This document shows positions 26,827-64,000 of a stretch of 64,000 nucleotides of DNA, one piece after another. The position numbers and the translations under genes are program-made. Origin of the DNA: Dictyostelium discoideum (taxonomy: Eukaryota); assembly GCA_000004695.1 (NCBI GenBank), contig CM000151.3, positions 416,001-480,000 on the forward strand, written 5' to 3'. Every line of letters starts with the position of its first letter. The stretch's first letter is position 1. The notes under the pieces were generated by a model. That model was not told where the DNA came from and did no database searches. It saw nothing but the letters and a program-made list of their open reading frames with translations.

Positions 26827-29598
<2,772 letters not shown>

Positions 29599-30378
29599 AG
29601 AAATAATAAAAAATATTTATTATTATTATTTTTATTATTAAATTAATTAAAATTATTATTTCCTTTTTATTTTTATTTATTTTATTTATTTAAGTGGAAA
29701 AAAGAAATTAATAAATTTTATTATTATAAATTGGGCAATTTCTTTTTTTTTTTAATGCAGTTTCAATTTAAAAATTTATTGAATTAATTAAAAAATTGTA
29801 TAATTTTATTTGAATAAATGGTTAAAATCTTCATGAATTGTATAAAATAAATTACTACTATATTCTAATTCTGATAGTATTGATTGATAACCTAAATTTT
29901 GAAAAAAGAATTCAAATAATTGATGATTGTCTTTTTCTATAGCTTTGGCAACATATCTTTGAAAAGATTCATCTGTTTCTAAGAAACTTTCTTCTGGTAA
30001 TTTACTATTTTTTGGGAAAAGGATATTATCATAATTTTCTAATAAGAATTTAAAAATAATTATATTTCCATCAACTGAAGCTTTAAAAAAACAAAGTGAA
30101 AGTAGACGTTTTTTTTCTTCATTAAATGTTTTTGGTAGTGATTGTTGTGATTTTGTTTCAAAATTATTGAATGTATCTATTAATTTCCCTAATAATTTGT
30201 AATCACTATTTTTACCAATAATTTCAAAAATAATATCTAATTGGAAATATGATTCATTAATTAAATGATTTTCAAATTCTATTAAAAATTGATCAATTTG
30301 ATTTGATAAATAAAGTGCTGATATTAATGATAATCGTGAGGGTATGGGAACTTTATCTTTACATGTTGAGAAAATACA

Positions 30379-32427
30379 TCAGCCAGAATCAATATCAGCT
30401 GCTTTACGATTTGTAAATAACCAATATAAAAATTGTTTATTAATGTATGAAGCTTTTAAAATGAATAAATCATTTTCCGTACTATTAAAAAGATGAATTT
30501 CAGTTTGAACCATTATTGAAAGTGGATTATATTGTTCTGTTGTATGTTCAATAATTAATTTTATACATTCTAATTGATAGTCTAAATTAATTTTTGAATT
30601 TACTTTTAAAACTAAAGATTCTAATAAGAGTTTTTCATCTAAATAGTTTGAGATATTAAAATTTTTACGAGTTTCTTTTAATTTTTTAATCAAGTATGCA
30701 TATGATATTAAACCATACCCTTTTGGTATTGAGGGGGTGGTTATTGAAAAACCAGAGTTTATAATTGTTGGTAAAATTAAATCATTTTCAATATTATATT
30801 TATCATTTAATTGAATTTTTATTAATTGATTGAAAGTTTCAATTAAATCAGTTCTGTCCATTTTCACCCAAGTTGTTAAATTATTTTTAAATTTTGGATG
30901 TAAAATGATTTCGTTGAAATTTGTAAAACAAAATTCTAACATTTCATTTGATCTAATATATCTTTTAATATCAAAATCAAAATTTTCTTTATTATTTAAT
31001 TCTTTTGAAATTAGTTTTAAATAATTATCTTTAAAGAAATTTGAATTTGAATTTGAATTTGAATTTGAATTTGAATTTGAATCAATAGATGTATTGAAAG
31101 ATGAATTTGTTGAAAGTGAAATTAAAAAATCAATTAATTCTATATCATCATATTCAATTAATAAAAATACTAACACTATTGGATTTAAAAGATTTTTTAA
31201 AATTAATTTTGAAATAAATGATATATATCTTGATTTTGAAACATCTGAAGATTTCATAAATCTAAATAAAATTTGAGGATATAGTTTAGTTTCAAATATT
31301 GGCAATGTGCCAAAATCATTTATAGTCTTTTCTAATAATCTTGAATTGCAATATTCTAGTGAAGGTATAGATGGTTGATTTTGATATGCTGTTAGAATAT
31401 TTTCATAAATTTTATTTGCATGAGAATTAATTTCTTCATTACTATCTCCTTCATCATCAAATTTTAAAAATCTAAATGGATTATAATCAATATCAAACCC
31501 TACTGAATCATAATAAAATTTAATTAATTTTTTTAAATTAAAATCATCATATTCTAAATTAATTATATTTGATTTTAAATCTTTTTCTGAATATTTATTT
31601 TTAATTTCATTAATTTCTTCAATTGTTAAAATTGGTGGTGATGATGATGATTTTATATTTTTTAAAAAAGGAATGTTGATAATAATTATACACAAACCAA
31701 TTAAAATTTCCAAATCTATATTTAAAACATCTTTTGGGAATATTGAATCCTTAAAAAATAATAAATCTCTACTTTCTATTAGTGTTATTAACCTTGGAAT
31801 CTTTGATAACATTTTTATAATTGTGGATTTATGAATTTTTTTATTTGATAATAAAATTTTCCACTCCATTGAGCATGGAAAATTATTATTTTCATCATTT
31901 TCATTAAGATATGTCAATATGTCAATTGAGTTATATTTTAATGCTTCATTAAAATAAAATTGATAATTATTGTTAACCAAAATACAATTATTATAATTAA
32001 TATTATTATTATTATTATTATTAATATTAATATTATTAGTTTCATTAAAGGTACTTTTTTCATTGACTAAAACTAAGAAACCAACTAAACAATCATTTTC
32101 TATTGAACATTCTAATAATTTATTAAAATCAACCATTGAGTAGTGTGGAATTAAATTTTTATAAATTTTAATGTTTTCTTCATTTATATTTTTAATTTTT
32201 TTAAAAACACAATCAAAATTATTGTAATTCTTAAAATTTAAAAATTCACCACAATTCAACTTTTCAATTAGTAATGATAGATTATTTGAATTAATAATTT
32301 GTGATATATCATTGAATACTTCATATTTAATTGTTCTAAATCTAATGTTTGTATATGAAATAATGGTGTAAAATAAAAATTTATTTTTTATTACTTTCCA
32401 AAATAAAATTTCTGTATTATCAGACAT
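30379..32427 (-). CDS. Orphan Asn-rich protein, tandem copy A (682 aa as written). It ends at a TGA (30379-30381) where copy B has AGA (Arg). The downstream ~540 nt (to ~29806) remain in frame and are homologous to copy B coding sequence, so this is either a recent nonsense truncation or a read error.
   Basis: ORF MSDNTEILFWKVIKNKFLFY...TNRKAADIDSG*. Nucleotide alignment to 32767..35393: copy A has 'tcagcc' (30377-30382) where copy B has 'tctacc'. Contains an in-frame (GAATTT)n coding (SN)n. Confidence 0.6.
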   Translation of the reverse strand: MSDNTEILFWKVIKNKFLFYTIISYTNIRFRTIKYEVFNDISQIINSNNLSLLIEKLNCGEFLNFKNYNNFDCVFKKIKNINEENIKIYKNLIPHYSMVDFNKLLECSIENDCLVGFLVLVNEKSTFNETNNININNNNNNNINYNNCILVNNNYQFYFNEALKYNSIDILTYLNENDENNNFPCSMEWKILLSNKKIHKSTIIKMLSKIPRLITLIESRDLLFFKDSIFPKDVLNIDLEILIGLCIIIINIPFLKNIKSSSSPPILTIEEINEIKNKYSEKDLKSNIINLEYDDFNLKKLIKFYYDSVGFDIDYNPFRFLKFDDEGDSNEEINSHANKIYENILTAYQNQPSIPSLEYCNSRLLEKTINDFGTLPIFETKLYPQILFRFMKSSDVSKSRYISFISKLILKNLLNPIVLVFLLIEYDDIELIDFLISLSTNSSFNTSIDSNSNSNSNSNSNSNFFKDNYLKLISKELNNKENFDFDIKRYIRSNEMLEFCFTNFNEIILHPKFKNNLTTWVKMDRTDLIETFNQLIKIQLNDKYNIENDLILPTIINSGFSITTPSIPKGYGLISYAYLIKKLKETRKNFNISNYLDEKLLLESLVLKVNSKINLDYQLECIKLIIEHTTEQYNPLSIMVQTEIHLFNSTENDLFILKASYINKQFLYWLFTNRKAADIDSG

Positions 32428-32766
32428 TTTTAAAATATAGAAAATTAAAATAATAAAAAAAAATAAAGAGATGTTTGTTATTTTTTTTTTTTTTTTTTTT
32501 TTTTTTTGATTTTAAAAAATTGTTAAAAAAAATGGGTCATTCAGCGAAATCTGAAAAAATATCTTATTTTTTTTTTTTTTTTTTTTCGATGAATGGGTGC
32601 ACTACAATTAATTTAAATATTTATTTTAAACACCATGTTTTTGAAAATTAATAAAAATAATTATTTGCTTTATTTTTTATTTATTTAAGTGAAAAAAAAG
32701 AAATTTTATTAAATTATAATAATATAAATCAATTTATTTTTTCTTTTTTTTTTTTATTTTTTTATT

Positions 32767-35393
32767 TTATTTGAATAAATGGTTAAAACCATTTTGAATT
32801 GTATGAAATAGATTACTACTTTTTTCTAATTCTGATATTATTGATTGATAACCTAAATTTTGAAAAAAGAATTCAAATAATTGGTGATTTTTTTTTTCAA
32901 TAGCTTTGGCAACATATCTTTTAAAAGATTCATCTCTTACTAAGAAATAATCTTTTGGTAATTTACTATTTTTTGGGAAAAGGATATTATCATAATTTTC
33001 TAATAAGAGTTTAAAAATATTTATATTTCCACCAATTGAGGCATTAAAAAAACAAAGTGAAAGTAGACGTTTTTTTTCTTCATTAAATGTTTTTGGTAGT
33101 GATTGTTGTGATTTTGTTTCAAAATTATTGAATGTATCTATTAATTTCCCTAATAATTTGTAATCACTATTTTTACCAATAATTTCAAAAATAATATCTA
33201 ATTGGAAATATGATTCATTAATTAAATGATTTTCAAATTCTATTAAAAATTGATCAATTTGATTTGATAAATAAAGTGCTGATATTAATGATAATCGTGA
33301 GGGTATGGGAAATTTATCTTTACATGTTGAGAAAATACATCTACCAGAATCAATATCAACTGATTTACGATTTGTAAATAACCAATATAAAAATTGTTTA
33401 TTAATGTATGAAGCTTTTAAAATGAAGAAATCATTTTGAATACTACTAAAGAATTCAATTTCAGTTTGAGCCATTATTGAAAGTGGATTATATTGTTCTG
33501 TTGTATTTTCAATAATTAATTTTATACATTCGAATTGATAGTCTAAATTAATTTTTGAAAAGCCTTTTGAATTTACTTTTAAAAGTAAAGATTCTAATAA
33601 GAGTTTTTCATCTAAATAGTTTGAGATATTAAAATTTTTACGAGTTTCTTTTAATTTTTTAATCAAGTATGCATATGATATTAAACCATACCCTTTTGGT
33701 ACTGAAAGAGTATTATTTGAAAAACGAATGTTTATAAAAGTTGGTAAGATTAAATCATTTTCAATATTATATTTATCATTTAATTTATTTTTTATTAATT
33801 GATTGAAAGTTTCAATTAAATCAGTTCCATCCAATTTCACCCAAGTTGTTATATCAGTTTTAAAATTTGGATGTAAAATGATTTCATTGAAATTTGTAAA
33901 ACAAAATTCTAACATTTCATTTGATCTAATATATCTTTTAATATCAAAATCAAAATTTTCTTTATTATTTAATTCTTTTGAAATTAGTTTTAAATAATTA
34001 TCTTTAAAGAAATTTGAATTTGAATTTGAATTTGAATTTGAATTTGAATTTGAATCAATAGATGTATTGAAAGATGAATTTGTTGAAAGTGAAATTAAAA
34101 AATCAATTAATTCTATATCATCATATTCAATTAATAAAAAATAATAACACTTATTGGATTTAAAAGATTTTTTAAAATTAATTTTGAAATAAATGATTTA
34201 TATCTTGATTTTGAAACATCTGAAGATTTCATAAATCTAAATAAAATTTGAGGATATAGTTTAGTTTCAAATATTGGCAATGTACCAATACCATTTATAG
34301 TCTTTTCTAATAATCTTGAATTGCAATATTCTAGTGAAGGTATAGATGGTTGATTTCGATAATATGATTCTAAAATTTTTTCATGAATTTGATTTGATTG
34401 AGAATTAATTTCTTCATTACTATCTTCATCATCATCATCATCAAATTTTAAAAATCTTAATGGATTATAATCAATATCAAACCCTACTGAATCATAATAA
34501 AATTTAATTAATTTTTTTAAATTAAAATCATCATATTCTAAATTAATTATATTTGATTTTAAATCTTTTTCTGAATATTTATTTTTAATTTCATTAATTT
34601 CTTCAATTGTTAAAATTGGTGGTGATGATGATGATGATTTTTTATTTTTTAAAAAAGGAAGGTTGATAATAATTATACACAAACCAATTAAAATTTCCAA
34701 ATCTGTATTTAAAACATCTTTTGGGAATATTGAATCCTTAAAAAATAAAAAATCTCTTATTTTTATTAGTGATATTAACCTTGGAATCTTTGATAACATT
34801 TTTATAATTAAGGATTTTTGAATTTTATTTGTCAATTTTTTCCACTCCATTGAGCATGGAAAATTATTATTTTCATCATTTTCATTAAGATATGTCAATA
34901 TGTCAATTGAGTTATTTTTTAATGCTTCATTAAAATAAAATTGATAATTATTGTTAACCAAAATACAATTATTATAATTATTATTATTATTATTAATATT
35001 ATTAGTTTCATTAAAGGTACTATTTTCATTGATTAAAACTAGGAAACCAACTAAACAATCATTTTCTATTGAACATTCTAATAATTTATTAAAATCAACC
35101 ATTGAGTAGTGTGGAATTAAATTTTTATAAATTTTAATGTTTTCTTCATTTATATTTTTAATTTTTTTAAAAACACAATCAAAATTATTGTAATTCTTAA
35201 AATTTAAAAATTCACAACGATTCAACTTTTCAATTAGTAAGGATTGATTATTTGAATTAATAATTTGGGATACATCATTGAAATCTTCATATTTAATTGT
35301 TCTAAATCTAATGTTTGAATATGAAATTATAATTTTAAATAAATATTTATTTTTTATTACTTTCCAAAATAAAATTTCTGTATTATCAGACAT
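32767..35393 (-). pseudogene. Orphan Asn-rich protein, tandem copy B. Full-length 3' part, but the frame is broken near 34131-34150 by two extra bases relative to copy A (run of 6 A vs 5, tt vs t), so it is split into ORFs 35393..34131 and 33915..32767.
   Basis: Copy B reads ...LKNLLNPISVIIFY* where copy A reads ...LKNLLNPIVLVFLLIEYDD... The downstream ORF (MLEFCFTNFNEIILHP...) is in another frame. The ORF-track start at 35561 (MMKKKKKK) is a poly-A artefact; the true ATG is at 35393 (MSDNTEILFWKVIKNK). Confidence 0.55.
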
Positions 35394-35801
35394 TTTTAAA
35401 ATACAGAAATTAAAAAAATATAAAAGAAAAAAAAAAAAAAGATGTTCTTTTTTTTTTTTTTTTTTTGGCAAAACAACCTCCCCTCTTTTTTTTTTTTTTT
35501 TTTTTTTGAAATTTTTTTTTTTTTTTGAAATTTTTTTTTTTTTTTTTTTTTTTTTCATCACAATTATTATTTCTTATTTCATTGTTATTATTTTTTGAAA
35601 ATGTATAATTTAATTAATTTTTTTTAATACCACATAAACACAACAAGAAACACCACATCCAAATAATTGATTTTCAAATTTTATTTTTTTTCCTTGAAAA
35701 TTTATATTAAATAAATATTTACACCAACAAAAAAAAAGAAAAAAAAAATAATGTAATATAAAAATATTAAAAAAAAAAAAAAATCCATCTTATTGATGTT
35801 T

Positions 35802-38753
35802 TTATTGAATTAAATAAAAGAGAATTGAAATAATAGTAATTAATATGAATAATGATGATGATGATGATGATGATGATAGTTTTGAGCTATCACTATTATT
35901 TTTATTATTATTATCATCATTTCCTTTATACACATCAATATCAACATCAAATTCAATTAATTTACTATTGAATATCATTTTTAAACCTATTGAATCTTGA
36001 TCAATTATTGCTTTTGAAGTACATAGATAAAAACCAGTACCGTTAGAAATATTAATTTTATTTGTACTTTCCAAGTTAGCAATACATTGTAATTTACATT
36101 TAATAGCTCTTCGAGAACCATTTGGAAGAACTATACTTGCATCCATTGAATCAGTGAAACCAATACCACTAAGTTTAATTGAAAATCCATCTTTATCATT
36201 TTTAACTTGGTTGATTTTTGTGACATTTGGATCTGAATGATTTAAAATTACATTTGAAAGTACTAAATTTGGACCAATATAAACTGATACATTAAATGGA
36301 GTATATGAAATTTGAGGTGATGAAACTAATAAAACGTCATCAGTTGAATTTGCTAATTTTCTAGTTTCTTTATTATTAACTAATACCTTAACTTTATTTT
36401 CATTTAGTTTTGTTATGAATCTATTACCAGAAATTAAAAGTATACCATTACAATCATTATTAATTACTTTTTTAACTATTGGTGGTAGGGTTGAATTAAA
36501 TCCTGAAAGCAAATTATTTTCATCGACAACCATTTCAATTGGACCATTATTAAATGAATCATTATTTCTAATTTGAAATTGATTATTATTTAATAATTGA
36601 ATTTTTGAAGTGATATTAACATCATTATAATATACTTGAATCACTTTTTCAGAATTACCAAAATTATTACCATTGATTGTAATCATATCTTTTTTAGCTG
36701 AAATTGTTAAAAAATTAATAATTGGTTGTGCATATGAAAATTGATTATTTAATACAAGTGAATTATAATTTAATATATAATCTTTATTAATACCAGTACC
36801 AGATGGCATTTGACAAGTTGTTATATATTTATTTTTTGATGATACCGGAATTGAACATTGAATTGATTTTCTGGAACTATTAATAAATATATTTGGAATA
36901 ATTTGTTCATTGAATGGATAAGTAATATAGTAAATTCCAATTTCTAATTTACCATTTTCAGTTGTTGGATTACTAATTGAATTAATTTTTAATGATGGTA
37001 ATGTAGACATTGAAATTGGTATTGAATTACTTAAAATATTATTACGGTTTATTGTGATATTAAATAATTTAAATTTTAATAATGGTAATTCAAATGTTAA
37101 ACTTTTTTCATCATTTGAAACTTCAAACTTATCAATTAAAATCTTTTCATCTATACCAATACCAGTGATTTCAATAATTGAATCATTTGATCCTCTACCA
37201 ATATTAGTACCATTTAATAATACTATACTACCATTTAATAAAATTGCATTATTTAATGATGGTACATTATATGTAAATGTATTATTATTACTAACAGAAT
37301 CACAACCATCAAATGTAATAATAATTGGTAAATTTGAACCACCTTGATTTGCAGGACCCAATATACATTGAATTTCAGTTTGATTTGAGGTAATGTTTTT
37401 ACAAAATAAATCACCAATTTTAACAGTTGGCATAGATGAATATAAAAATGAACCTTTAATTGTAACAATACCACCATCATAATATGTAATTGAATTTACT
37501 GAAGTGATAGATGGAGGATAAAAACAATAAATAAAATTCTTTTCCATTGAAACATCATTTACTTTAATATTAATTGACATTTGACCTGATTCAACTCTTC
37601 TATAATTACTAACAATAATTTGTGTATGATCTCTATTAATTATGAAATTATTTTGTTTAACACCATCAAAATAGATTTCTTGAACTTTAAAAGCATTAAG
37701 ATAGAAATTATAACCATCTATGAATACATCTGAATATTTTTGATTATAACTGACCATTGTAATTATTGGTGGTGCATATGAAAAATTTTGATAATATAAA
37801 TAGTTAAAAGTAATTAATTTTGATGAACCAGAACCTGCTGGAAAACTTACTGTGAGATTACTAACATCAAATAAGGGATCATCGAAATTACCTTTAATAA
37901 TTGCATATGAAAATAGAGAAGGTTGTGGAGGAGCTGTTACTCTAATATAGTTCATTATATTCGGTTTTGGATCACTTACATAATCTTCATATAGAAATCT
38001 TAAATAACTACCAGTGATAATAATCTCATCACCTTGTGTTGAAGGGAGTTTATTAAATTTAAATATTGGTTTTGGAGTTAATTTTGATCCAATATAGAAA
38101 TTATTACAATCTTCCCAAGGTATTGAAAAATGTCTGACACATACTCTGCTTGATGAGCTACCCCATAATCTATTAATTGGTTGTTCAGATTTGAATACAC
38201 AGTATCTAGTTTGATTAATAATTGTATCACAATCGAAATAATTATTTGAATAGTTTGATATTGGTTTATCATTATTGTACATAATAAATCTTGTAAAATA
38301 ACATTCTTCACTAGTAGTATCAAAAGTATAAACTAAAGAAGTTTCATTATAAATTATATCTTTTACTGGTCCAATTCTAAGTTTTTTATCATTTGGAGGT
38401 AAAACAGATGGTGATCCAGTCATTGAAAGATTTTTAACTAATGTATCATTAATAAGCTTAAATGTAACAGTAAATTTTTGATTTACCAATGATGGTGGTA
38501 ATTTAAAAGTCATTTTCATCTCGTTGATTGATCCTTTAAATTCACTGATTTTATAAAATTGTCCATTACTATCATTTAATTCAATAATTGTTTTGTTTTC
38601 ATTTCCAAGATCAAAACCATGTATTTCAACAATACCATTTGGTAAATAAAATCCAGTGTCCAATTGAAGTCCTGAAATTATTGTAAAATGATTAAAAAAA
38701 GATAAAGAAATTAAAAATAATAAAATAATTTTATATTTAGTTTTAGAAAACAT
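35802..38753 (-). CDS. Secreted cell-surface protein (983 aa) with signal peptide, repeated IPT/TIG-like beta-sandwich modules, Ser-rich stalk and C-terminal hydrophobic anchor (SSSSSSSSLFILITIISILFYLIQ). Possibly a Tgr-like adhesion/recognition family member.
   Basis: MFSKTKYKIILLFLISLSFFNHFTIISG signal. Repeats such as PPSITSVNSITYYDGGIVTIKGSFL... and ...SISAKKDMITINGNNFGN... resemble the IPT/TIG 'P.I..i.P..G...GGT.itI.G.nF' consensus. Many N-glycosylation sequons. Confidence 0.7.
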   Translation of the reverse strand: MFSKTKYKIILLFLISLSFFNHFTIISGLQLDTGFYLPNGIVEIHGFDLGNENKTIIELNDSNGQFYKISEFKGSINEMKMTFKLPPSLVNQKFTVTFKLINDTLVKNLSMTGSPSVLPPNDKKLRIGPVKDIIYNETSLVYTFDTTSEECYFTRFIMYNNDKPISNYSNNYFDCDTIINQTRYCVFKSEQPINRLWGSSSSRVCVRHFSIPWEDCNNFYIGSKLTPKPIFKFNKLPSTQGDEIIITGSYLRFLYEDYVSDPKPNIMNYIRVTAPPQPSLFSYAIIKGNFDDPLFDVSNLTVSFPAGSGSSKLITFNYLYYQNFSYAPPIITMVSYNQKYSDVFIDGYNFYLNAFKVQEIYFDGVKQNNFIINRDHTQIIVSNYRRVESGQMSINIKVNDVSMEKNFIYCFYPPSITSVNSITYYDGGIVTIKGSFLYSSMPTVKIGDLFCKNITSNQTEIQCILGPANQGGSNLPIIITFDGCDSVSNNNTFTYNVPSLNNAILLNGSIVLLNGTNIGRGSNDSIIEITGIGIDEKILIDKFEVSNDEKSLTFELPLLKFKLFNITINRNNILSNSIPISMSTLPSLKINSISNPTTENGKLEIGIYYITYPFNEQIIPNIFINSSRKSIQCSIPVSSKNKYITTCQMPSGTGINKDYILNYNSLVLNNQFSYAQPIINFLTISAKKDMITINGNNFGNSEKVIQVYYNDVNITSKIQLLNNNQFQIRNNDSFNNGPIEMVVDENNLLSGFNSTLPPIVKKVINNDCNGILLISGNRFITKLNENKVKVLVNNKETRKLANSTDDVLLVSSPQISYTPFNVSVYIGPNLVLSNVILNHSDPNVTKINQVKNDKDGFSIKLSGIGFTDSMDASIVLPNGSRRAIKCKLQCIANLESTNKINISNGTGFYLCTSKAIIDQDSIGLKMIFNSKLIEFDVDIDVYKGNDDNNNKNNSDSSKLSSSSSSSSLFILITIISILFYLIQ

Positions 38754-39144: not shown

Positions 39145-39397
39145 TTTATTGACGAAATTTTGGGTTAAAAAAAAAAAAAAAAAAAAAAAAATCAACCTCT
39201 AATTTATTTGTTACATTAACTTCGATCAGACATTATAAAATTAATTTAAATAATCCTTATTTTTTAATAACAGATTTACCCAAAAATCGTATAGTACAAG
39301 TTAAAAAATTAATTCAAATAAATAAAATATCCACTACATATGTGGAAAGTCTGACTTTTTATTTTTTTTTTTTTTATTTTTTATTTTTTTTATTTTT

Positions 39398-42300
39398 TTA
39401 AACATTAATATTATTCCAAGTAAATTTATTTAATTCTTGATTATCTTTTGAACCTAAAACTGTTGTATAATTATTTTGATTATTGAATAAATATTTTGTA
39501 GCGATTTCTTCTAATTTTGGTTTAGTTATTGATAATAAATTATTTCTTCTAGTTTGTTTCATTTCATTTGTGATATCTCTCATCCATTCACCAACACCTT
39601 TATTTGAAGGTGATTCAGGTGAATCGAAATCTGAAAATATTGAAAGTTGAGCATTTTCAATATTTTCTAAAGTGATTTTATTATTTAATGACCATTGAAT
39701 TGATTGATCAAAAGCGTCTAAAGTTTTAATTAAATTTGGATCTCTATAAGAGTAGAATGAGATGACGCCACTATCAACACTTGAACCACCACCATAGGCA
39801 CCACCCTTCTCTCTAATCTCTTTATGAAGGAATTCTGATAAAACTTTAGTTAAAATTTGAATTGGTGCTGAATCAACATGAGTATATGGTACAGCTTGAT
39901 AAGTCTTTGAAATATAATTAACAGTTGCTGGAATTGGGAAAAAGTTTAATCTACTACTATTTGTAATTTCTTCATTAGCATTATCTAATGAATTTACAAT
40001 TATTGGTGTATTTTTATTTGAAAATGGTTTTAAAAAGTTTGATAAATTATTTTCAAGATTTGAAATATTCTCTTTTTCAGTGGTAATTAAACATTTCATT
40101 AAGGAACGATCAAGAATGAATTCATTTATTGCTAAAAGTTTATTAATTAATGAATTGATATCATTTGAGGAGACTATTTCATTGATTAATCTAACTTGTG
40201 ATAAACCACTCCATTGCTCAGATAATTGAGCAGCTCTAGAGAATTTTGAAGAACTTAATATCTTTGCATATGATAAACCACTTGATGGAATACCTTCAAT
40301 TACTGAAGCTTGTTTTTGATTTAATAAATTCTTTAAAAGGTCTGGATTATTCCATTTATTCTCTAATAGAATCTTTTGTAATAATGAAAACATTTTCAAA
40401 AGATTATTATTCAATGCTGCACCTTTAATATAAATTCTCTCTTGAGTATAATCCAAATCACTATGACCCATAGTAATCAATGGTGAAACACTGAATTTAC
40501 CAATATGTAAATTAATTTCAGTATCCAATTGTTTATGATCAAATTCTGCAGCACCCATTTCATCAATTAATGAACAGAATATTGGTACGTATGGTTTCAA
40601 TTTTGGATCCATTGAGGAGATATCAATTGTACTTCTAAAATAACTAATACCATTTGTTGGTAAATCTAAAATACGTAATGGTACACCGTCACCATTGGTC
40701 ATTGATAATTTTGTATCGATATGGTCTATTTTAGATTGCTGTTTTTCAATATCACATATATTAATCTTTGGTAATACTGAAACATCTTGAATTTGATTTT
40801 GTCTAAATTGTAAATCTTTTGCAACTTCTATAATCTCTTTAGTTTGTTCTGGTGTTAATTCTGATTTAATTCTTTCCAATTTCTGCAATTCCTTTTCTTG
40901 TTCCTCTTTTTGAAGATTTTCGTCATTCTCCATTGTGATGTAAAGTCTATGAGGATTGTTTAAAAGTTCTTTAATTTTAGTTTCAAAGAAACCACCTTTT
41001 TCAAGCTCCTTTCTGAGTTTAGCAATTGCCTCATTTAAAAACAATGGATCTACAGGGTCACCACCGTGAATCCAATTCGATGATAATGAACCAACAAGTT
41101 TTAAACCAAATGAAGCTGAAACATCCTTTTGAGCAAATTCATATTGATGTAAAATCGATTCAATCACATCTGAAGCGAACCCATCACGTGATGATTTCTC
41201 CAATGTCTCTATGATTACTTTTTCAACTTTTTCTAAATCCTCTTTTTTAATACCAATACCACCAACACTAAAACTTGATTCTAATAAACCATCATCGAAA
41301 CCTGTATTTGGTGAATAATCTAAAACTAATCCACTCTCTAATAATGCTTGATACATTGGTGTATTTGATCCTCTTAATAATAAATTTGATAACATATGTA
41401 ATGATAATGATTCAAATAAATCTTTATTCTCTTTATGTAAAATTGAAATTGAAAATTTAAATTTCTTTTCAGGATTAACATCCACTTTGATAAAGGTAAA
41501 AAAAAAAAAAAAATATTAATAAATATTAATAAATATATTTATATATATATATATATATATAACTTACTTGCTGATGGTGGACATTTTAAATAAATTCTTT
41601 TAGATTCTGACCAACGTTTAACTTTATTAACAGTTGTATTAATATTATTTGAATTATTTTTAAATTTTGATAATGAATTATCATTTATAAATTTTAAATG
41701 ATTAATTGGATTTAAATCACCATAGGAAAAGAAATAAGAATTTGAAGGATGATAATGATTTGAATGAAAATCTTTTAATTGTTGGTAAGTTAATGATGGG
41801 ATATCGTTTGGTTCGCCACCACTATTGTGGGAATAGGTGGTGCCAGGATAAAGATGTTGTTGTGAGATTTCGGCATAGAATGACGATGGGTCCGATAGGG
41901 CACCTTTCATCTCATTGAATACGATTCCTTTGAATTTCAATGGCGATTGTGGGTTCTCCATTTGCTCGAATTCCAATCTGTGTCCTTCTTGACGGAAATC
42001 TTGTTCACTCAAGTTTGGGAAAAATGTAGCATCTAAATAAACTGATAATAAATTATAATAGTCTTTTGGATCCTGTGTGCCGAATGGGTAGGATGTGTGG
42101 TCTGGTGCTGTCCATGCATTCATATAGGTGTTTAACGAACGTTTTAGCATATTGAAGAATGGGTCCCTAACAGGGTATTTCTTGCTACCACATAATGTAG
42201 TGTGCTCTAAAATATGTGCTACACCTGTTGAATCTTTTGGTATGGTTTTAAATGTCACACTAAAAACATTATTTGTATCTTCACAATCTATATGTAAATA

Positions 42301-42453
42301 TTTTGCACCTGTTTCTATATGTTCAAATTGATATGTTTTAAATTGTCTCTCTGGTACTTCTCTAATTTTTATAACTTTAAATCCATGAATTTCATCACCA
42401 ATTTTTAAATTTAATTTATTTCTATCTGAAAAAAAAAATATATATTATTAATA

Positions 42454-42502
<49 letters not shown>

Positions 42503-43082: not shown

Positions 43083-44118
43083 AAGTTATATTTTTTGGAA
43101 TTTGGAAAGGAATAATTGTTTGTTTTATTTTTCTTTGAATTATAATTTCAGATACATATTTAGGAATTGAATCAATAGTTAATTGTTGTTTTATATCACA
43201 TATTTCTAAGGTTTTGACACCTTCTGGTATTATACCGCAGGTTAATTTATTGGTTGAAATCCCATTCTAAATAAAATAAAACAATCTTACAAGTTTTGGA
43301 AATTGAATGAAAGGTAAATTCTTGTTTTTATATCACATTAAAAACAAAAAATACAACACCTTCTGGTAATATACCCTGCAGGTTTTTTTTTGATTGAATC
43401 CATTTAATAAATAAACAGCCTTTACAGAGTTGGGAATTGAATCAATAGTTAAATCTTGTTTTATATCACCTAAAAATAAGTTCTGAACACCTTCTGGTAA
43501 TATACCTTCAGATAATTTTTCTTTGAATCCATCTAAAAGCATTACATGACGAGGTATACTTTTTAAACTATTTATTCCTTTACAATTATTTTCTAAATGC
43601 AATACCATTTCTATAATTGTTATAATTTTTTAGAAATGAATGATTCTCTGAATAAATGTAATATTTTCTTGAAAAAACTAAATAATATATATATATATAA
43701 GTTAGCATTTTACAAAGTTATTAAATTAATTGATCGATATGATTATACATACATTTTATAATTAAATCATTTTCCTCCAATTCTATTATAAAATTGCGTT
43801 GGGAAATAACTTTATTCAATCTAACACTAGAATTATTATTTAAAAAATCAATAATATTATTATTACTATTATTATTATTTAATGAATAAATTAGTTTTAA
43901 ATTATCTTTTATATTATTAATTATATGATTATGGAAATCAATGGTCTGATTGTTGTATTCTTTTAACATATTTATAATATCAATACTATTATTATTAATT
44001 ATTTAATAATGTCAACGATTGGTGATATTTAATAATTATTTCAAATGTATTTCCATCTATTGAATAATTTTTAAAATCATTTTTCTTTTTGATAAAATCA
44101 TTTATTTTATCAATAATT

Positions 44119-44198
<80 letters not shown>

Positions 44199-44684
44199 GT
44201 TATTATTAATTATTGGTGATAGTATTTCAATATCATTATTTAATGATGAATTTAAAGTTTCATTTATTAATTGATTATTTTCAAATGTTGGTGTTAATTG
44301 TTTTTTAATATCTAATTCGATTTTTGAGAGTATATCATGAATTTTTTTAAATTCTTTTGTTACTAAATCATTATTATTGTTATATTGTAATTGAATTTTA
44401 TTGAAGGTTTTATTTGATTCATTTAAAATAAATTGATCATTCCCTATTCTATCAATTATTTTTGGATATATATTATCTTTAAAATTATTCATTAATAAAT
44501 TAATTTCTTTTGTTGATGATCCATCGATTTGATTGAATTTATGACCATGATGTTTATTATTTATTGAAATACATTCAATACAACATGGAATAAAATTACA
44601 ATCTAAACATAAAACCATTAAATCCTTTTTTGTATGTATTATACATTTAGTATTATTAAAATTTTCACTCTCTTTTGATATCAT
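43083..44684 (-). pseudogene. B-box zinc-finger + FNIP-repeat gene, tandem copy 1. The B-box/coiled-coil part is intact (44684..43995). There is a 4-bp frame-disrupting difference near 43985-43995 relative to copy 2. The FNIP repeat array is mostly lost or degenerate (43085-43610).
   Basis: MISKESENFNNTKCIIHTKKDLMVLCLDCNFIPCCIECISINNKHHGHKF has the B-box C/H spacing. The 'aataattaataataatag' insertion is the 4-bp difference. FNIP-like units (GILPEGVQNLFLGDIKQDLTIDSIPNSVKAVYLLNGFNQK) are present in only ~2 copies, followed by a decayed repeat. Confidence 0.55.
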
Positions 44685-44719
44685 TTTGTGTTGTAACTGC
44701 TTTGGTTGTAAATCAAAAA

Positions 44720-44810: not shown

Positions 44811-45459
44811 TTATTTATTCTTTTTTTTTTTTTTTTATTTTATTTCCAACAACATTTACTATTTATAAAAAAAAAAAAATAAAAAATAAAAAAAAAAAAA
44901 AAGAAATAAAATAAAAAAAAAAAATTTTAAAGAAAGAAAGAAAAAAAAAAAGTTGGTAATAAGTCCCAAAATTACCATAATAATTTCAGCCAGTTATTAG
45001 GCTGTATGGCTGCTGAAAATTACCATATTAATTTTGGCATGTGACAAATAAGATAAAAAAAAAGTATTAGAAAATTATAAATTGAAACAAATACAAAATA
45101 AAATGAAATCATTTAACAAAAAGAAATAAAAAAAAAAAAAGTTAAAAAAAAAAAAACAAGTATTAGAAACAAATGATAAAAATTTAAAACAAAATCAAAT
45201 GAAAAAAAAAAAAAAAATAAGTGTTATTGTCATTTAGATGCCAAGGAAATTAAAAATCTTAATTAAAAATCGAATACCAAAATTTATTTTTAAACAAAAT
45301 TTTATTAATAATTTATTAACTGAATGGTTAATTCTAATGTTGAGTAATATTTATTATTAAAAATGAAAAAATGAAAAAGGAATTTCATTTAATTTGAATT
45401 ATGTGAAAAGGATTTAGAATAAATTTATTTATTGAGAGTTTATTAATTTTTTATACTTT

Positions 45460-47048
45460 TTAATTATCTAAATATTTCAAAGTTATATTTTTTGGAATTT
45501 GAAATGGAATAATTGTTTGTTTTTGTTTCATTGGAATTATAATTTCACATACTGATTTAGGAATTGAATCAATAGTTAATTGTTTTATATCACATATTTC
45601 TAAGATTTTGACACCTTCTGGTATTATACCGGCGGTTAATTTTTGGTTGAATCCATCTAATAAATTAACATACTTTACAGATTTAGGAATTGAATCAATA
45701 GTTAGCTCTTGTTTTATGTCACCTAAAAACAAATTTTCCACACCTTCTGGTAATATACCTGCAGTTAATTTATGCTTGAATCCATCTAATAAATAAACAG
45801 ACTTTACAGATTTAGGAATCGAATCAATAGTTAAATCTTGTTTTATATCATATAAAGACAAATCTTCAATACCTTCTGGCAATATACCTGCAGTTAATTT
45901 TTGCTTGAATCCATCTATTAAATGAACAGAATTCACAGATTTAGGAATTGAATCAATAGTTAAATCTAGTTTTATATCACCTAAACTTAAAAAATTAACA
46001 CCTTCTGGTAATATACCTGCAGTTAATTTTTGGTTGAATCCATCCAATAAATAAACAAACTTTACAGAGCTAGGAATTGAATGAATAGTTAAATCTTGTT
46101 TTATATCACCTAAAAACAAAAATACAACACCTTCTGGTAATATACCTGCAGTTAATTTTCGATTGAATCCATTTAATAAATAAACAAACTCTACAGAGTT
46201 AGGAATTGAATCAATAGCTAAATCTTGTTTTATATCACCTAATAACAAATTTTTAACACCATCTGGTAATATACCTGCAGTTAATTTTTGATTGAATCCA
46301 TCTAATAAATAAACAGACTTTACAGAGCTAGGAATAGAATTAATAGTTAATTCTTGTTTTATATCACCTAAAAATAATCTATGAACACCTTCTGGTAATA
46401 TACCTTCAGATAATTTTTCATTGAACCCATCTAAAAGCATTACATTTAGAGGTATACTTTTTAAACTAGTTATACCTTTACAATTATTTCTAAATGCAAT
46501 ACCATCTTTATCATTGTTATAATTTTTTAGAAATGAGTGATTCTCTGAATAAATGTAATATTTTCTTGAAAGAACTAAATAATATATAAGTAAAGTTATT
46601 TAAATAATTAATCGATATGATCATATACATACATTTAAATATTAAATTATTTTCTTCTGATTCTATTATAAAATTACATTTGAAATTTTTGAAAATAACT
46701 TTATTAACTCCAATAATAAAATTAATAAAATTAATTTCATAATTATTATTATTATCATTATTTAAAAAGTCAGTAATATTATTATTATTATAGTTATTAT
46801 TATTATTATTTTTTAATGAATAAATTAGTTTTAAATTTTCTTTTATATTATTAATTAAATGATTATCGAAATCAATGGTCTGATCGTTGTATTCTTTAAA
46901 CATATTTATAATATCGATACTATTATTATTATTTAATAATGTCAATGATTGTTGATATTTTTTAATAATTTCAAATGTTTTTCCATCTATTGAATAATTT
47001 TCAAAATCATTTTTATTTTTGATAAAATCATTTATTTTATCAATAATT

Positions 47049-47137
<89 letters not shown>

Positions 47138-47289
47138 ATTAATTTGATCATTTTTGAAATCATTATTATCAACGTATATATGATTGTTATCATCAATTGA
47201 TGGATGAAAAAATGATTGAATTTGAAAAAGAACATCTGCTATTGGTCTTTCTTCAAGTTGTGATTTACCAATTGATAAATTATTATTAA

Positions 47290-47349
<60 letters not shown>

Positions 47350-47813
47350 ATAGTATTTCAATATCATTATTTATTGATGAATTTAAAGTTTCATTTATTA
47401 ATTGATTATTTTCAAATGTTGTTGTTAATTGTTTTTTAATATCAAAATCAATGATTGAGAGTATATCGTGAATTTTTTTAAATTCTTTTGTTACTAAAAC
47501 ATTATTATTGTTATATTGTAACTGAATTTTGTTATAAGTTTTATTTGATTCATTTAAAATAACTTCATTATTGCCTATTCTATCAATTATTTTGAAAATA
47601 TATTTCTTTAAAATTATTCATAAATAAAATAATCTCTTTTGGTGGAGAATCATCGATTTGTTTGAATTTATGACCATGATGTTTATTATTTATTGAAATA
47701 CATTCAATACAACATGGAATAAAGTTACAATCTAAACATAAAAGTATTAAATCCTTTTTTGTATGTATTATACATTTAGTATTTTTAAAATTATCATTCT
47801 CTTTTGATATCAT
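45460..47813 (-). pseudogene. B-box zinc-finger + FNIP-repeat gene, tandem copy 2. B-box exon (ATG 47813), poly-Asn coiled-coil middle, then ~14 FNIP repeats (46440..45460). There is a 2-bp difference relative to copy 1 at ~47600-47640, so the B-box ORF stops early (…[11 protein letters not shown]). It is probably a frameshifted pseudogene, unless a homopolymer read error.
   Basis: ORFs 47583..47897, 46517..46945 and 45460..46440 are colinear with copy 1. The FNIP consensus (..GILPEGV.nLfLGDIKQdLtIDSIP.SVk.VyLLDGFNQKLTA) is read from 45460..46440 with a 132-bp DNA periodicity. Confidence 0.55.
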
Positions 47814-47855
47814 TTTGTGTTGTAACTGCTTAAAAAAAAAAAAAAAAAAAAAAAT

Positions 47856-47894
<39 letters not shown>

Positions 47895-57932: not shown

Positions 57933-58533
57933 TCTTTTTATTTTTTTCTATATTTTTTTTTTTTTTTTTTATATTATTTTTTTTTTTTTTAATTTATATG
58001 GTTTTTTTTTGGGTGGTTAATTAGTGGGTTTTTTATTTTTTATATGTAAAAAAGAATTTAAAATCGATTTTATATTGTTTTTTTTTTTTTGATTTAATTA
58101 TGAAAATAAAAAAAAAAAAATACCACTATCTAAAAATAGATTCAATTTTTGATACTCTGAGGGTGAATTGTTTTTATTTTTATTTTTAAAAAGGTTTCCT
58201 AAATGAGGAAATGGGTTTATTTATTTTTATTTTTATTTTTAAATATTTTTCTTTTTTTTTTAAATTAATTATTTTTTAATTTCTGGAAAAATGATAATAT
58301 ATTTTCCTAGGAATTAAATTTATTATAATGATGAAAAGGAAAATAATAATAAAATATCTGATTTATTTTATTTGAATTATTTTTTTAAATTTAAGAATGA
58401 AAAAAAAAAAAATGGAAAAAAAAAAAAGGAAAGGAAAGAAAAAAAAAAAGAAAAAAAAATAATTATCTAAAACAAACCAATTTAATGGGTTTTAAACTTT
58501 TTTTTTTTTTTTTTTGTATTTTTTTTTTTTTTT

Positions 58534-62172
<3,639 letters not shown>

Positions 62173-62475
62173 CACGTGATATTACTATTTAAATTTATTT
62201 ATTTATTGATTAATTTATTTGTTTCTTTTATTTTATTTTATTTTATTTTATTTTATTTTAATATATTTTATTTTAATTTATTTTATTTTATTTTTTTTTT
62301 TTATTTTTTTTTTTTTTTTATTATTGAACAAAAAAAAATAAAATAAAAGAAAATAATATAATATAATATAATATAAATATATATATATTAATATATATTA
62401 ATATATATTAATGTATTTTTTTTTTTTTTTTTTTTTAATTGTATGTTTTTGTGTGTGTCAGTTGTTTTAAGTTTG

Positions 62476-62507
<32 letters not shown>

Positions 62508-62652
62508 TTGGGTGAGAGTTTTGTTTTTTTTTTTTTTGTTGTGAATTTTTATTTTTTTTTTTTATTTTTTTTTTTTTTCTCGAGTTATTGTTTTATTTTA
62601 GCCCAAACAAAAAAATCAAAACAATCTTGATGAGTTTTTTGGAATTTTGGAG

Positions 62653-62688
<36 letters not shown>

Positions 62689-62931
62689 AAACTAAAAAAA
62701 AAAAAAAAAAAAATGAATTTGGTATTAGAAATGTTAAAAAAAAAATAATAAAATAAAATGAAAAAATAAATTAAATAAAAAGTATTAATAAAAAGATAAT
62801 TTTTTTTAAATTAAAATTAGATAAGAGAAAATAATGATAATAAAAAAAAAAAATAAATAAAAAAAAAAAAATAAAAAAAAAATAAAAAAAATAAAAAAAA
62901 AATAAAAAAAATAAAAAAAATTTTAAAAAAA

Positions 62932-62971
<40 letters not shown>

Positions 62972-63424
62972 GTGAGATGCATATAAAACTAAATTTTTAA
63001 ATGTAGGTGTTGGTTTATTTTTGGAGTGTGGGTATGTGGTGGTGTATGTTATCATTTGAGGTATTTTATAAGTACATTAAAGTAAATTAAAAATAAAATA
63101 AAATAAAAATTTTAATTTTATATATTTATATTTATATATAAAAAAAATTGATTTAATAATTTTTTTTTTTTTTTTTTTAAAAAATAAAAATTATTTTTAA
63201 AAAAAAAAAAATAAAAATAAAAAAAAATAAAATAAAAAATAAATAAATAAAAAAAACAAATAATAATAAAATAAATAAATATTTAAATTGAAAAACCACA
63301 CCCAAAATAGAACAAAAAAAAAAAACTAGACATTGTTTCTTATTAACTATTGCATTCAATAGGAAGTTGTACAACTATAAAAATAATATTAAAAAAAAAA
63401 ATATAATCATTATAATATATTAAG

Positions 63425-63460
<36 letters not shown>

Positions 63461-64000
63461 TTAACAAATTCTATTTAAATAAATAGTACTACCTACTATT
63501 TTAAATTTTTTTTTTAAATTTTATTTTTTAAATTTTATTTTTTTTTTTTTATTTTTTTTTTAATATAAATTTATATAAATTAATATTAGGATTTAAAAAA
63601 AAAAAAAAAAAAAAAACAAAAATATATTCTTATTATTAAAATTTTTATTTTGTTGTATTTTTAAAACTTAGCTTTTTTTTTTTTTTTAATTTTTTTTTCC
63701 ACAAAATCATAAAAAAAAAAAAATCTCGCAAAACGATCAACGTATATTGGCATTAATGTAATTGGGGACTTATATTTTTAGATTTTAGATTTGCCAACAA
63801 AATAAAAAAAAAAAAAAAGAGTGGTGTTTTTTTTATTTTTTTTATTTTTTTTTATTTTTTTATTTTTAAAAAAATATATTTAGATTTTTTATTTTTTATT
63901 TTTTATTTTTTTTTTTTTTGAGTAGTGAATGTGAAGCATACGTTGAAATTATATTACAATTGATAAAAAAAAAAAAAAAAAATTAATTTCCATTTTAAAA

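What the first reader, a model, noticed from the sequence alone, without database searches (positions are those of the whole stretch)
29640..35600. Young 2.97-kb tandem duplication in which both copies of an orphan gene carry different disabling lesions
Copy A (30379..32427) ends at a TGA where copy B has AGA. The ~540 nt downstream of that TGA are still in-frame and homologous to B's coding tail. Copy B is full length at its ends but carries two single-base insertions within 20 bp (~34131-34150) that break the frame. So neither copy encodes the ~870-aa full-length product as written. Possible explanations are recent pseudogenisation of both, programmed or tolerated read-through, or assembly or base-call errors in a duplicated AT-rich region.
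Basis: seen in the sequence. Interest (0 to 1): 0.6.

Follow-up and report, generated by a model that had tools for sequence, protein, structure and literature searches.

The report
Tandem gene pair, one lesion probably artefact
Two neighbouring copies of a fast-evolving, amoeba-specific helical-repeat gene on Dictyostelium discoideum AX4 chromosome 2 both look broken in the reference sequence, but an independent assembly shows one copy is intact (its "frameshift" is most likely a reference error) and only the other carries a real, recent premature stop, so this is ordinary gene-family turnover.

Summary
An independent, near-identical de novo Nanopore+Illumina assembly (GCA_054883475.1, inferred to be AX2-214) lacks exactly those two bases, giving an intact 874-codon copy B, and reproduces copy A's TGA. 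Two neighbouring genes are likewise frame-broken only in the reference, so copy B's lesion is most likely a reference error. All three lesions are derived: eight homologous copies in four other Dictyostelium lineages lack them. The gene is real and under selection. Its ORFs stay open although ~7% of neutral substitutions would create stops, all 38 indels are multiples of three, and D. purpureum has an intact 808-aa homolog. It evolves fast (dN/dS 0.6-0.9). The pair is not young: AX4 and a wild isolate share the junction, and gene conversion keeps the copies similar (P=0.0002). No SECIS, read-through or credible intron rescues copy A. Verdict: one intact copy plus one recent nonsense allele. 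Low interest.

The parts
30382..32427 (-). Copy A, codons 1-682 (ATG at 32427), up to the premature stop
   Evidence: Translation. 100% identical in the independent assembly L005. Groups with copy B and the 'downstream' copies of L001/L004.
30379..30381 (-). Copy A premature TGA (codon 683), a derived AGA>TGA nonsense substitution
   Evidence: All 8 homologous copies in 4 other genomes, plus copy B, read AGA. The TGA is also present in L005. No SECIS or other RNA family in 28500-36500.
29806..30378 (-). Copy A tail: 190 in-frame codons plus TAA, no longer translated if the TGA terminates. Predicted ankyrin-like helical repeat domain.
32767..35393 (-). Copy B, full gene span. As written it is frameshifted; with bases 34152 and 34141 removed it is an intact 874-codon ORF.
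   Evidence: Window copy B minus the two bases is identical to L005 13355-15979, annotated there as 874 aa.
34141..34152 (-). The two extra single bases of copy B (A at 34152, T at 34141). Most likely errors in the AX4 reference sequence.
   Evidence: Absent from L005, from copy A and from all 7 other homologous copies. They lie at the edge of a 254-nt tract that is 100% identical between A and B.
32428..32766 (.). Spacer between the copies (3' flank of B, 5' flank of A), AT-rich with poly(A)/poly(T) runs
   Evidence: Alignment. The colinear 8.5-kb alignment of AX4 to L001 runs through both copies and this spacer.
30083..30350 (-). Longest gene-conversion tract (268 nt, 100% identical to B 33044-33311). 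Others: A 30914-31167 = B 33887-34140 (254 nt); A 31475-31651 = B 34459-34635 (177 nt); A 32077-32249 = B 35043-35215 (173 nt).
   Evidence: Run-length analysis: permutation P = 0.0002 for the longest run, and 0/5000 when restricted to sites that vary among the 8 copies.
30357..30407 (-). 51-nt GTAAAG...AAAG segment containing the TGA. Splicing it out reproduces the 856-aa product annotated for copy A in the L005 assembly. Probably a gene-prediction artefact.
   Evidence: Removing it gives an 856-codon open frame, matching the product length. It is 35% GC, and every other copy reads the same sequence as coding.
35805..38753 (-). Upstream neighbour (context, not part of the duplication): Tgr-family IPT/TIG gene, exact match to XP_645543.1 / Q55B03. 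This match identifies the window as AX4 chromosome 2.
   Evidence: Exact look-up. Pfam Ig_TgrO1/TIG on the orthologs. dN/dS ~0.5.

Best explanation
The locus is a tandem pair of a lineage-restricted Dictyostelium gene encoding an ~870-aa, all-helical, probably ankyrin-like repeat protein of unknown cellular role.

Shown:
- The tandem pair has the same structure in AX4 and in the wild isolate L001 (a colinear alignment runs through both copies and the spacer); L003 and L004 also carry tandem pairs.
- The two copies are kept similar by gene conversion, so their 5.5% divergence understates the age of the duplication.
- The gene is under selection to stay open but evolves fast (dN/dS 0.6-0.9).
- Copy A's AGA>TGA at codon 683 is present in two independent assemblies, is derived and is recent.
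- Copy B's two extra bases are absent from the second assembly, where B is an intact 874-codon ORF.

Inferred:
- The two extra bases in copy B are base-call or assembly errors in the Sanger-era AX4 chromosome 2 reference, not mutations.
- The second assembly is AX2-214, so the TGA dates back to the common NC4 parent of AX2 and AX4.
- Copy A makes at most a 682-aa protein lacking the C-terminal ankyrin-like domain, while copy B supplies the full-length product.

This is ordinary birth-and-death turnover of a tandem duplicate, comparable to the fully decayed upstream copy in isolate L004 and the single-copy state in L002.
For: Identity of the window: the Tgr neighbour is an exact match to XP_645543.1, on a contig of 8,484,197 bp.

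Independent assembly L005: over 22.7 kb aligned, copy A has 0 differences and copy B has only the two 1-nt differences at 34152 and 34141; B is a 2625-nt open ORF there. PRJNA1300491 assemblies are de novo Nanopore+Illumina and include AX2-214 as the only lab strain (PMC12745789).

Direction of error: the L005 state matches all 8 other copies. Two other genes within 14 kb (window ~44700-43100 and ~47870-45420) are frame-broken only in the reference. The nuclear mutation rate of 2.9e-11 per site per generation (PMC3466296) makes dozens of real AX2/AX4 differences in 22.7 kb implausible.

Real gene: all 38 of 38 indels are multiples of 3. About 7% of neutral substitutions would create a stop, and P(ORF stays open after 120 substitutions) was 0/2000 against 97-277 observed differences per pair. 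There is an intact 808-aa D. purpureum homolog, E 1.6e-42.

Rate calibration: the orphan has omega 0.6-0.9, against 0.07-0.12 for PeptM16 at the same dS.

Gene conversion and age: A-B distance per 400-nt segment ranges from 0.000 to 0.08, with identity runs of 268/256/173 nt (P=0.0002). Paralogs cluster by lineage with 95-100% bootstrap. The AX4-L001 alignment is colinear across both copies.

Recency of the TGA: 1 private substitution in the 190 codons after it.
Against: No raw AX4 reads were available, so a real AX3/AX4-lineage double insertion in copy B cannot be excluded. The strain identity of GCA_054883475.1 is inferred, not read from a record. Nanopore assemblies tend to under-call homopolymers, and one of the two sites is a T5/T6 run. 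No expression or protein data exist for either copy. Copy B's own lineage shows 34 nonsynonymous to 8 synonymous private changes (omega ~1), and its ORF staying open through 42 private substitutions is only marginally surprising (expected ~3 stops, P~0.05), so B's functionality is likely but not proven. The fold assignment rests on a predicted model of moderate confidence built from 6 sequences.
Confidence: 0.75

Rival explanations
1. Both lesions are real in AX4. Copy B acquired two nearby 1-nt insertions in the AX3/AX4 laboratory lineage after it separated from AX2, so AX4 truly has no full-length copy.
For: The reference sequence reads that way. The AX4 and L005 strains are not necessarily the same clone. 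The protein database holds no AX4 gene model for either copy, which fits the annotators treating both as pseudogenes.
Against: Two independent insertions 11 nt apart is an unusual mutational event. The same 14-kb neighbourhood has several more frame-breaking single-base extras and garbled patches in two other genes, only in the reference. The measured nuclear mutation rate is extremely low (PMC3466296). Apart from these patches, the coding sequences of the two assemblies are identical.
Confidence: 0.13
2. The second assembly is wrong, not the reference. Nanopore homopolymer under-calling deleted the two bases in L005, so copy B is frameshifted in both lab strains.
For: Almost all indel differences between the window and L005 are bases missing from L005, many in poly-T/poly-A runs. 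Site 34141 is a T5/T6 run.
Against: Site 34152 is an A1/A2 context, not a long homopolymer. The two 'errors' would have to fall exactly where the reference differs from all 8 other copies, and together restore an 874-codon ORF. The assemblies also used Illumina reads. The same direction (L005 intact) holds in two other genes.
Confidence: 0.04
3. Copy A's TGA is bypassed, by selenocysteine insertion, by stop-codon read-through, or by splicing of the 51-nt GTAAAG...AAAG segment (as in the GenBank model of 856 aa), so copy A still makes a near full-length protein.
For: The 190 codons after the TGA are still open. Removing the 51-nt segment restores an 856-codon frame, and a gene predictor chose that model.
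Against: An open tail is expected for a very recent mutation (1 private change). No SECIS or other RNA family was found at E<=10. The homologous residue is Arg in all relatives, none of which has a stop there. The 51-nt segment is 35% GC, and the same sequence is read as coding in the 8 other copies. From my own knowledge, it is shorter and less AT-rich than typical Dictyostelium introns.
Confidence: 0.05
4. The whole family is non-functional DNA decaying neutrally, and the high dN/dS reflects pseudogenes in all lineages.
For: dN/dS is 0.6-0.9 everywhere. There are no Pfam domains. One copy (L004 upstream) is plainly decayed.
Against: Six of nine copies are open over 857-1038 codons despite 97-277 substitutions per pair, when ~7% of neutral substitutions create stops (0/2000 simulations stayed open at d=120). 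All 38 of 38 indels are multiples of three. A full-length 808-aa ORF is conserved in D. purpureum. The real pseudogene shows what decay looks like here: deletions of 2, 100, 11, 13, 166, 95, 68 and 1 nt.
Confidence: 0.02

Closest known systems
D. purpureum DICPUDRAFT_78509 (XP_003287653.1, F0ZJR8) and the ACTFIW_011173/011174, ACTFIY_008711 and ACTFIZ_001898 hypothetical proteins
   Same: Full-length homologs (E 1.6e-42 down to 0; 31-88% identity) with the same length class and all-helical prediction. In the D. discoideum complex they occupy the same slot between a Tgr gene and a ~950-aa gene.
   Different: All are uncharacterised. The D. purpureum gene is single-copy and not next to a tgr gene. 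None carries the AX4 lesions.
Birth-and-death and concerted evolution of tandem gene clusters, as described for the Dictyostelium tgr family (PMC12745789; bioRxiv 10.1101/2025.10.22.684067)
   Same: Copy number varies between lineages (1-2). Pseudogenisation is lineage-specific (L004 upstream copy, AX4 copy A). There are gene-conversion mosaics, and the copies cluster by genome.
   Different: This gene is not a tgr gene (no TIG/IPT domain), and its dS equals the regional background, so it is not hypermutable.
Ankyrin-repeat protein-interaction scaffolds (DARPins, IkB-alpha, TRPA1 ARD, FEM1B)
   Different: Sequence identity is ~10%. No Pfam Ank model reaches its threshold, Foldseek finds nothing significant (best E 0.79), and the rest of the protein is modelled at pLDDT <50.
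False pseudogenes caused by reference-sequence errors in duplicated, AT-rich regions
   Same: Isolated extra bases break an ORF that is intact in an independent assembly and in all homologs. The errors sit in a tract that is identical between paralogs, and neighbouring paralogous genes show the same problem.
   Different: Not yet proven with AX4 reads. The second lesion at this locus (the TGA) is genuine.

Membership tests
Tandem paralogs under concerted evolution (gene conversion) | Identity between paralogs is mosaic: long identical tracts alternate with diverged segments more than chance allows | tested here: met
   Identity runs of 268/256/173 nt with 123 differences in 2598 sites: P=0.0002, and 0/5000 on variable sites only. 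Per-segment distance 0.000-0.08.
Tandem paralogs under concerted evolution (gene conversion) | Paralogs group by genome although the duplication is shared between genomes | tested here: met
   NJ bootstrap 99-100% for (AX4_A, AX4_B) and 95-99.5% for (L001up, L001dn, L004dn). The colinear 8.5-kb AX4-L001 alignment runs through both copies and the spacer. L004up is nearest to L001up. Independent duplications at the same site are not formally excluded for L003.
Pseudogene (disabled copy of a functional gene) | Disabling lesion confirmed in independent sequence data | tested here: met
   Copy A: the TGA is present in both the window and L005. This row applies to copy A only.
Pseudogene (disabled copy of a functional gene) | Disabling lesion confirmed in independent sequence data (copy B) | tested here: not met
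   Both extra bases are absent from L005, where copy B is an intact 874-codon ORF.
Pseudogene (disabled copy of a functional gene) | Loss of constraint after the lesion (further lesions, omega ~1 downstream) | tested here: inconclusive
   Only 1 private substitution in copy A's tail. That is too recent, or too homogenised by conversion, to judge.
Selenoprotein gene (UGA = selenocysteine) | SECIS element in the 3' UTR | tested here: not met
   Rfam scan of 28500-36500 at E<=10 gave no SECIS family.
Selenoprotein gene (UGA = selenocysteine) | Homologs have Cys or Sec at the UGA position | tested here: not met
   All 8 other copies encode Arg (AGA).
Programmed stop-codon read-through | The stop codon is conserved among relatives, with a conserved downstream ORF | tested here: not met
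   The stop is private to the AX4/L005 lineage; all relatives have a sense codon there. Read-through efficiency itself cannot be tested with these tools.
Ankyrin-repeat proteins (Pfam Ank clan: PF00023, PF12796, PF13606) | Sequence match to an Ank profile above the curated threshold | tested here: not met
   No hit for the AX4 protein, P0004 or P0007. P0002 hits Ank_3 at E 0.066, 14.2 bits against a 22.3-bit cut-off.
Ankyrin-repeat proteins (Pfam Ank clan: PF00023, PF12796, PF13606) | Stacked helix-turn-helix repeat fold that superposes on solved ankyrin domains | tested here: inconclusive
Tgr (tiger) allorecognition family | IPT/TIG immunoglobulin-like repeats | tested here: not met
   No TIG or Ig_TgrO1 hit in any copy. 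Only the upstream neighbour is a Tgr gene.

The most novel reading that the evidence does not exclude
The pair is a rapidly diversifying intracellular ankyrin-like adaptor locus whose copy number and integrity vary between strains: intact pair, single copy, decayed copy or truncated copy. In the D. discoideum complex it has become physically linked to a Tgr-family surface receptor, so its turnover (omega 0.7-1.0, truncation of the C-terminal repeat domain in the NC4 lineage) may reflect diversifying or conflict-driven selection tied to self/non-self recognition rather than relaxed constraint.
Probability: 0.06. Interest if true: 0.5.

Novelty: new member of a known kind. Interest (0 to 1): 0.2.

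Why it matters
The practical value is curation. In the AX4 reference, copy B of this pair, and at least two neighbouring B-box/FNIP genes, look like pseudogenes but are probably intact. So 'pseudogene' calls in duplicated, AT-rich parts of chromosome 2 should be rechecked against the new long-read assemblies. Biologically, the locus is a clean small example of a lineage-restricted gene that evolves at dN/dS ~0.7 yet is clearly kept open by selection, with gene conversion masking the age of a duplication and one copy caught immediately after a nonsense mutation. It also shows that dN/dS≈1 between paralogs does not by itself demonstrate decay. None of this challenges current understanding.

Tried and rejected
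- Pfam on the repaired AX4 protein and three homologs: nothing above threshold.
- Rfam at E<=10 over 28500-36500: only chance-level miRNA/snoRNA matches inside the Tgr gene and copy B, and no SECIS.
- tblastn of the protein against the whole window: no third paralog.
- Two word-indexed protein searches (copy A repaired, copy B intact): the same five proteins both times. There was no AX4 gene model and no read-derived fragment that could have served as a third witness for the lesion sites. Even the L005 proteins are missing from that database, so the absence of AX4 models is weak evidence.
- Exact look-ups of the truncated fragments: not in the collection.
- Exhaustive profile search of 1.84 billion representatives: only D. 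purpureum was added.
- PDB profile search: no hit at E<=10.
- Full-length AlphaFold2 model: pLDDT 39, too poor for fold search.
- Foldseek of the tail against PDB: nothing significant. The afdb50 library was unavailable.
- Supplementary tables of PMC12745789, to tie GCA_054883475.1 to a strain: not held. Text searches for polishing tools or AX2/AX4 discrepancy statistics: nothing.
- I considered an intron private to copy B (a 38-nt GT...AG segment that would restore the frame) and rejected it by eye as far too short and absent from copy A.
- I considered that the divergence from L001-L004 meant a hypervariable locus, and rejected it because the housekeeping neighbour PeptM16 has the same dS.
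Full report
**Observation**

The region 29.6-35.6 kb holds a head-to-tail duplication with a unit of ~2.97 kb (start-to-start spacing 2961-2987 nt) and 94.5% identity over ~2.9 kb. Both units carry one long minus-strand reading frame.
- Copy A runs from ATG 32427 through 682 codons to an in-frame TGA (30379-30381). It then continues open for 190 more codons to TAA at 29806-29808.
- Copy B runs from ATG 35393 to TAA at 32767-32769. It changes frame after ~418 codons because of one extra A (34152) and one extra T (34141) relative to copy A.

The tail is 570 nt, not ~540.

**What genome this is**

The window is ~20% G+C with CAA and AAT codon runs. The 983-aa ORF immediately upstream (35805-38753, minus strand) is an exact match to XP_645543.1 / Q55B03, an IPT/TIG (Tgr-family) protein of Dictyostelium discoideum AX4, on a contig of 8,484,197 bp, which is chromosome 2. 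No AX4 protein corresponding to either copy is in the protein collection. That fits the copies being unannotated or treated as pseudogenes in the reference, but the collection also lacks the L005 proteins, so this is weak evidence.

**The decisive comparison**

The same Tgr protein is encoded on a second, independent contig, GCA_054883475.1 (locus L005), where products of 874 and 856 aa are annotated at the positions of copies B and A. A base-by-base alignment of window 48670-25968 to L005 gave these results:
- There is no difference anywhere in copy A, so the TGA is reproduced.
- There are exactly two differences in copy B: the A at 34152 and the T at 34141 are absent from L005.
- Window copy B minus those two bases is identical to the L005 gene, an uninterrupted 874-codon ORF.

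The accession series JBTAPE-JBTAPI, the organism labels and the divergences match the ten-genome set of Holland et al. (PNAS 2025, PMC12745789, PRJNA1300491). Those are de novo Nanopore+Illumina assemblies with AX2-214 as the only laboratory strain, CR116C and OT3A as D. discoideum, and M4B and S6B as possible cryptic species. I infer that L005 is AX2-214; I could not read this from a record.

**Which assembly is wrong at copy B**

Four arguments point to the reference.
1. The L005 state is the state of copy A and of all seven other homologous copies in four further genomes.
2. It restores a long ORF.
3. Two other genes within 14 kb behave the same way. The B-box/FNIP gene at ~44700-43100 has extra single bases at 43998 and 43592 and a garbled repeat patch at 43481-43238 in the window, and reads through in L005. 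In its paralog at ~47870-45420, the window splits L005's 447-codon open stretch into 95 + 366 codons in two different frames.
4. The measured nuclear mutation rate of D. discoideum is 2.9e-11 per site per generation (Saxer et al. 2012, PMC3466296). Dozens of genuine differences between two NC4-derived laboratory strains in 22.7 kb are therefore not credible; most must be errors.

All the affected genes are recent paralogs, and the two extra bases in copy B sit at the edge of a 254-nt tract that is 100% identical between A and B. That is the kind of place where shotgun Sanger assembly is weakest. The counter-argument is that Nanopore under-calls homopolymers. It is weak here: 34152 is an A1/A2 context, the two sites would have to coincide exactly with the reference's private differences, and Illumina reads were also used. 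I put about 0.8 on a reference error, 0.13 on a real AX3/AX4-lineage mutation and 0.04 on an L005 error.

**Copy A's TGA**

The TGA is derived: all eight other copies read AGA. It is shared by both lab-strain assemblies, so it predates their separation if L005 is AX2. It is recent: of copy A's 19 private substitutions, only one lies in the 190 codons after the stop, and there are no further lesions.

The recoding options fail the tests that could be run:
- There is no SECIS or other RNA family at E<=10.
- The homologous residue is Arg, not Cys.
- No relative has a stop at this position.

The 856-aa GenBank model for L005 copy A equals the ORF with a 51-nt GTAAAG...AAAG segment (window 30407-30357) removed. 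That segment is 35% G+C, and the same sequence is read as coding in the eight other copies, so I regard it as a predictor's way around the stop. Only RNA data can exclude it.

**Is this a real gene?**

Yes.
- Homologs of 857-1038 codons are open in four other D. discoideum-complex genomes.
- An exhaustive profile search of 1.84 billion representatives adds one more relative, the 808-aa DICPUDRAFT_78509 of D. purpureum (E 1.6e-42, full-length alignment).
- In this AT-rich frame about 7% of neutral substitutions would create a stop. In simulations an ORF survived 60 substitutions 1.3% of the time and 120 substitutions 0 times in 2000, while pairs of copies differ by 97-277 substitutions.
- All 38 distinct indels among the eight copies are multiples of three.
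- The upstream copy of L004 shows what real decay looks like: deletions of 2, 100, 11, 13, 166, 95, 68 and 1 nt.

**How it evolves**

Nei-Gojobori dN/dS is 0.61-0.83 among copies in different genomes, apart from 0.40 for the near-identical L001dn/L004dn pair, and 0.88 between AX4 A and B. The same code gives 0.07-0.12 for the housekeeping neighbour PeptM16, 0.07-0.22 for the ~950-aa neighbour and ~0.5 for the Tgr gene, at the same dS (0.09-0.19). So the high ratio is real, and dS is at the regional background: the gene is weakly constrained or diversifying, not hypermutable. High dN/dS is a family property and not evidence that the AX4 copies are decaying. The tail and the head have similar omega and similar conservation to D. 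purpureum.

**Age of the duplication**

The A-B distance per 400-nt segment ranges from 0.000 to 0.08. Identity runs of 268, 256 and 173 nt are far longer than expected (P=0.0002, and 0/5000 on variable sites only). In NJ trees the paralogs group by lineage (99-100% for AX4 A+B; 95-99.5% for L001up+L001dn+L004dn). Even so, AX4 and L001 align colinearly through both copies and the spacer (8.5 kb), and L004up is closest to L001up.

The simplest reading is one duplication older than the AX4/CR116C/OT3A split, homogenised by gene conversion, with loss or absence of one copy in L002. Independent duplication in L003 is not excluded. 'Young' is therefore not supported.

**What the protein might be**

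- No Pfam family reaches threshold. There is one sub-threshold Ank_3 hit, E 0.066.
- There is no PDB sequence match.
- AlphaFold2 on the full length is unreliable (pLDDT 39) but all-helical.
- The 190-aa tail alone models at pLDDT 72 / pTM 0.66, as stacked helix pairs.

I therefore describe the protein as a probable ankyrin-like helical-repeat scaffold, which suggests protein-protein interaction. It is not a demonstrated member of the ankyrin family. The TGA removes this best-folded C-terminal module. The adjacency to a Tgr gene holds in the D. discoideum complex but not in D. purpureum, so a functional link is speculation.

**Verdict**

One copy (B) is most likely intact and only looks broken because of reference-sequence errors. 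The other (A) carries a genuine, very recent nonsense allele of the NC4 lineage. The pair is an older tandem duplicate under gene conversion, in a fast-evolving Dictyostelium-restricted gene. This is ordinary birth-and-death dynamics plus a curation issue, so interest is low. The remaining uncertainty can be resolved with AX4 reads or a PCR amplicon.

Noticed in passing
window 43100-44700 (minus strand): A B-box/FNIP-repeat gene is frame-broken in the AX4 reference by extra single bases at 43998 and 43592, and by a garbled patch at 43481-43238 that lacks ~124 nt of FNIP repeats present in L005. L005 reads through in one frame. Probably reference errors or a repeat collapse.
   Followed up: partly
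window 45420-47870 (minus strand): A paralogous 765-aa gene has a cluster of substitutions and two 1-nt indels at 47661-47444. In the reference this splits L005's 447-codon open stretch into 95 + 366 codons in different frames.
   Followed up: partly
window 27185, in ORF 26827-29598 (+): L005 has 201 extra nt of CAA/CAG (polyQ) repeat here, giving a 990-aa product against 923 aa in the window. This is either repeat-length variation or a collapsed repeat in the reference.
   Followed up: no
L005 16317-18938 = window 29806-32427: The GenBank model for copy A in GCA_054883475.1 is 856 aa. That equals the ORF with a 51-nt GTAAAG...AAAG 'intron' (window 30407-30357) that removes the TGA, which is probably a gene-prediction artefact.
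   Followed up: yes
L004 10001-12070; L002 7485-9783: Lineage-specific decay elsewhere at this locus. The upstream orphan copy of L004 has many deletions that are not multiples of three, and the Tgr ortholog of L002 is split into 363-aa and 308-aa pieces. L002 has only one orphan copy.
   Followed up: partly
L001/L004 versus window, PeptM16 gene (window ~39250-42500): Synonymous divergence between AX4 and the two isolates labelled D. discoideum is 0.09-0.10 in a housekeeping gene (0.13-0.19 for the 'cf. discoideum' isolates). That is large for members of one species.
   Followed up: no
window 58000-64000: Strong G-over-C skew (0.4-0.7) and a negative AT skew. blastn shows many matches to CAA/TTG-repeat coding sequence, which suggests a long polyQ-type repeat gene on the minus strand.
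   Followed up: no
window 35854-35921 (+): Weak Rfam matches (mir-598 at E 0.039; SNORD127 and snoR79 at E>1), all far below their gathering scores and inside the 3' end of the Tgr ORF. I treated them as chance.
   Followed up: no
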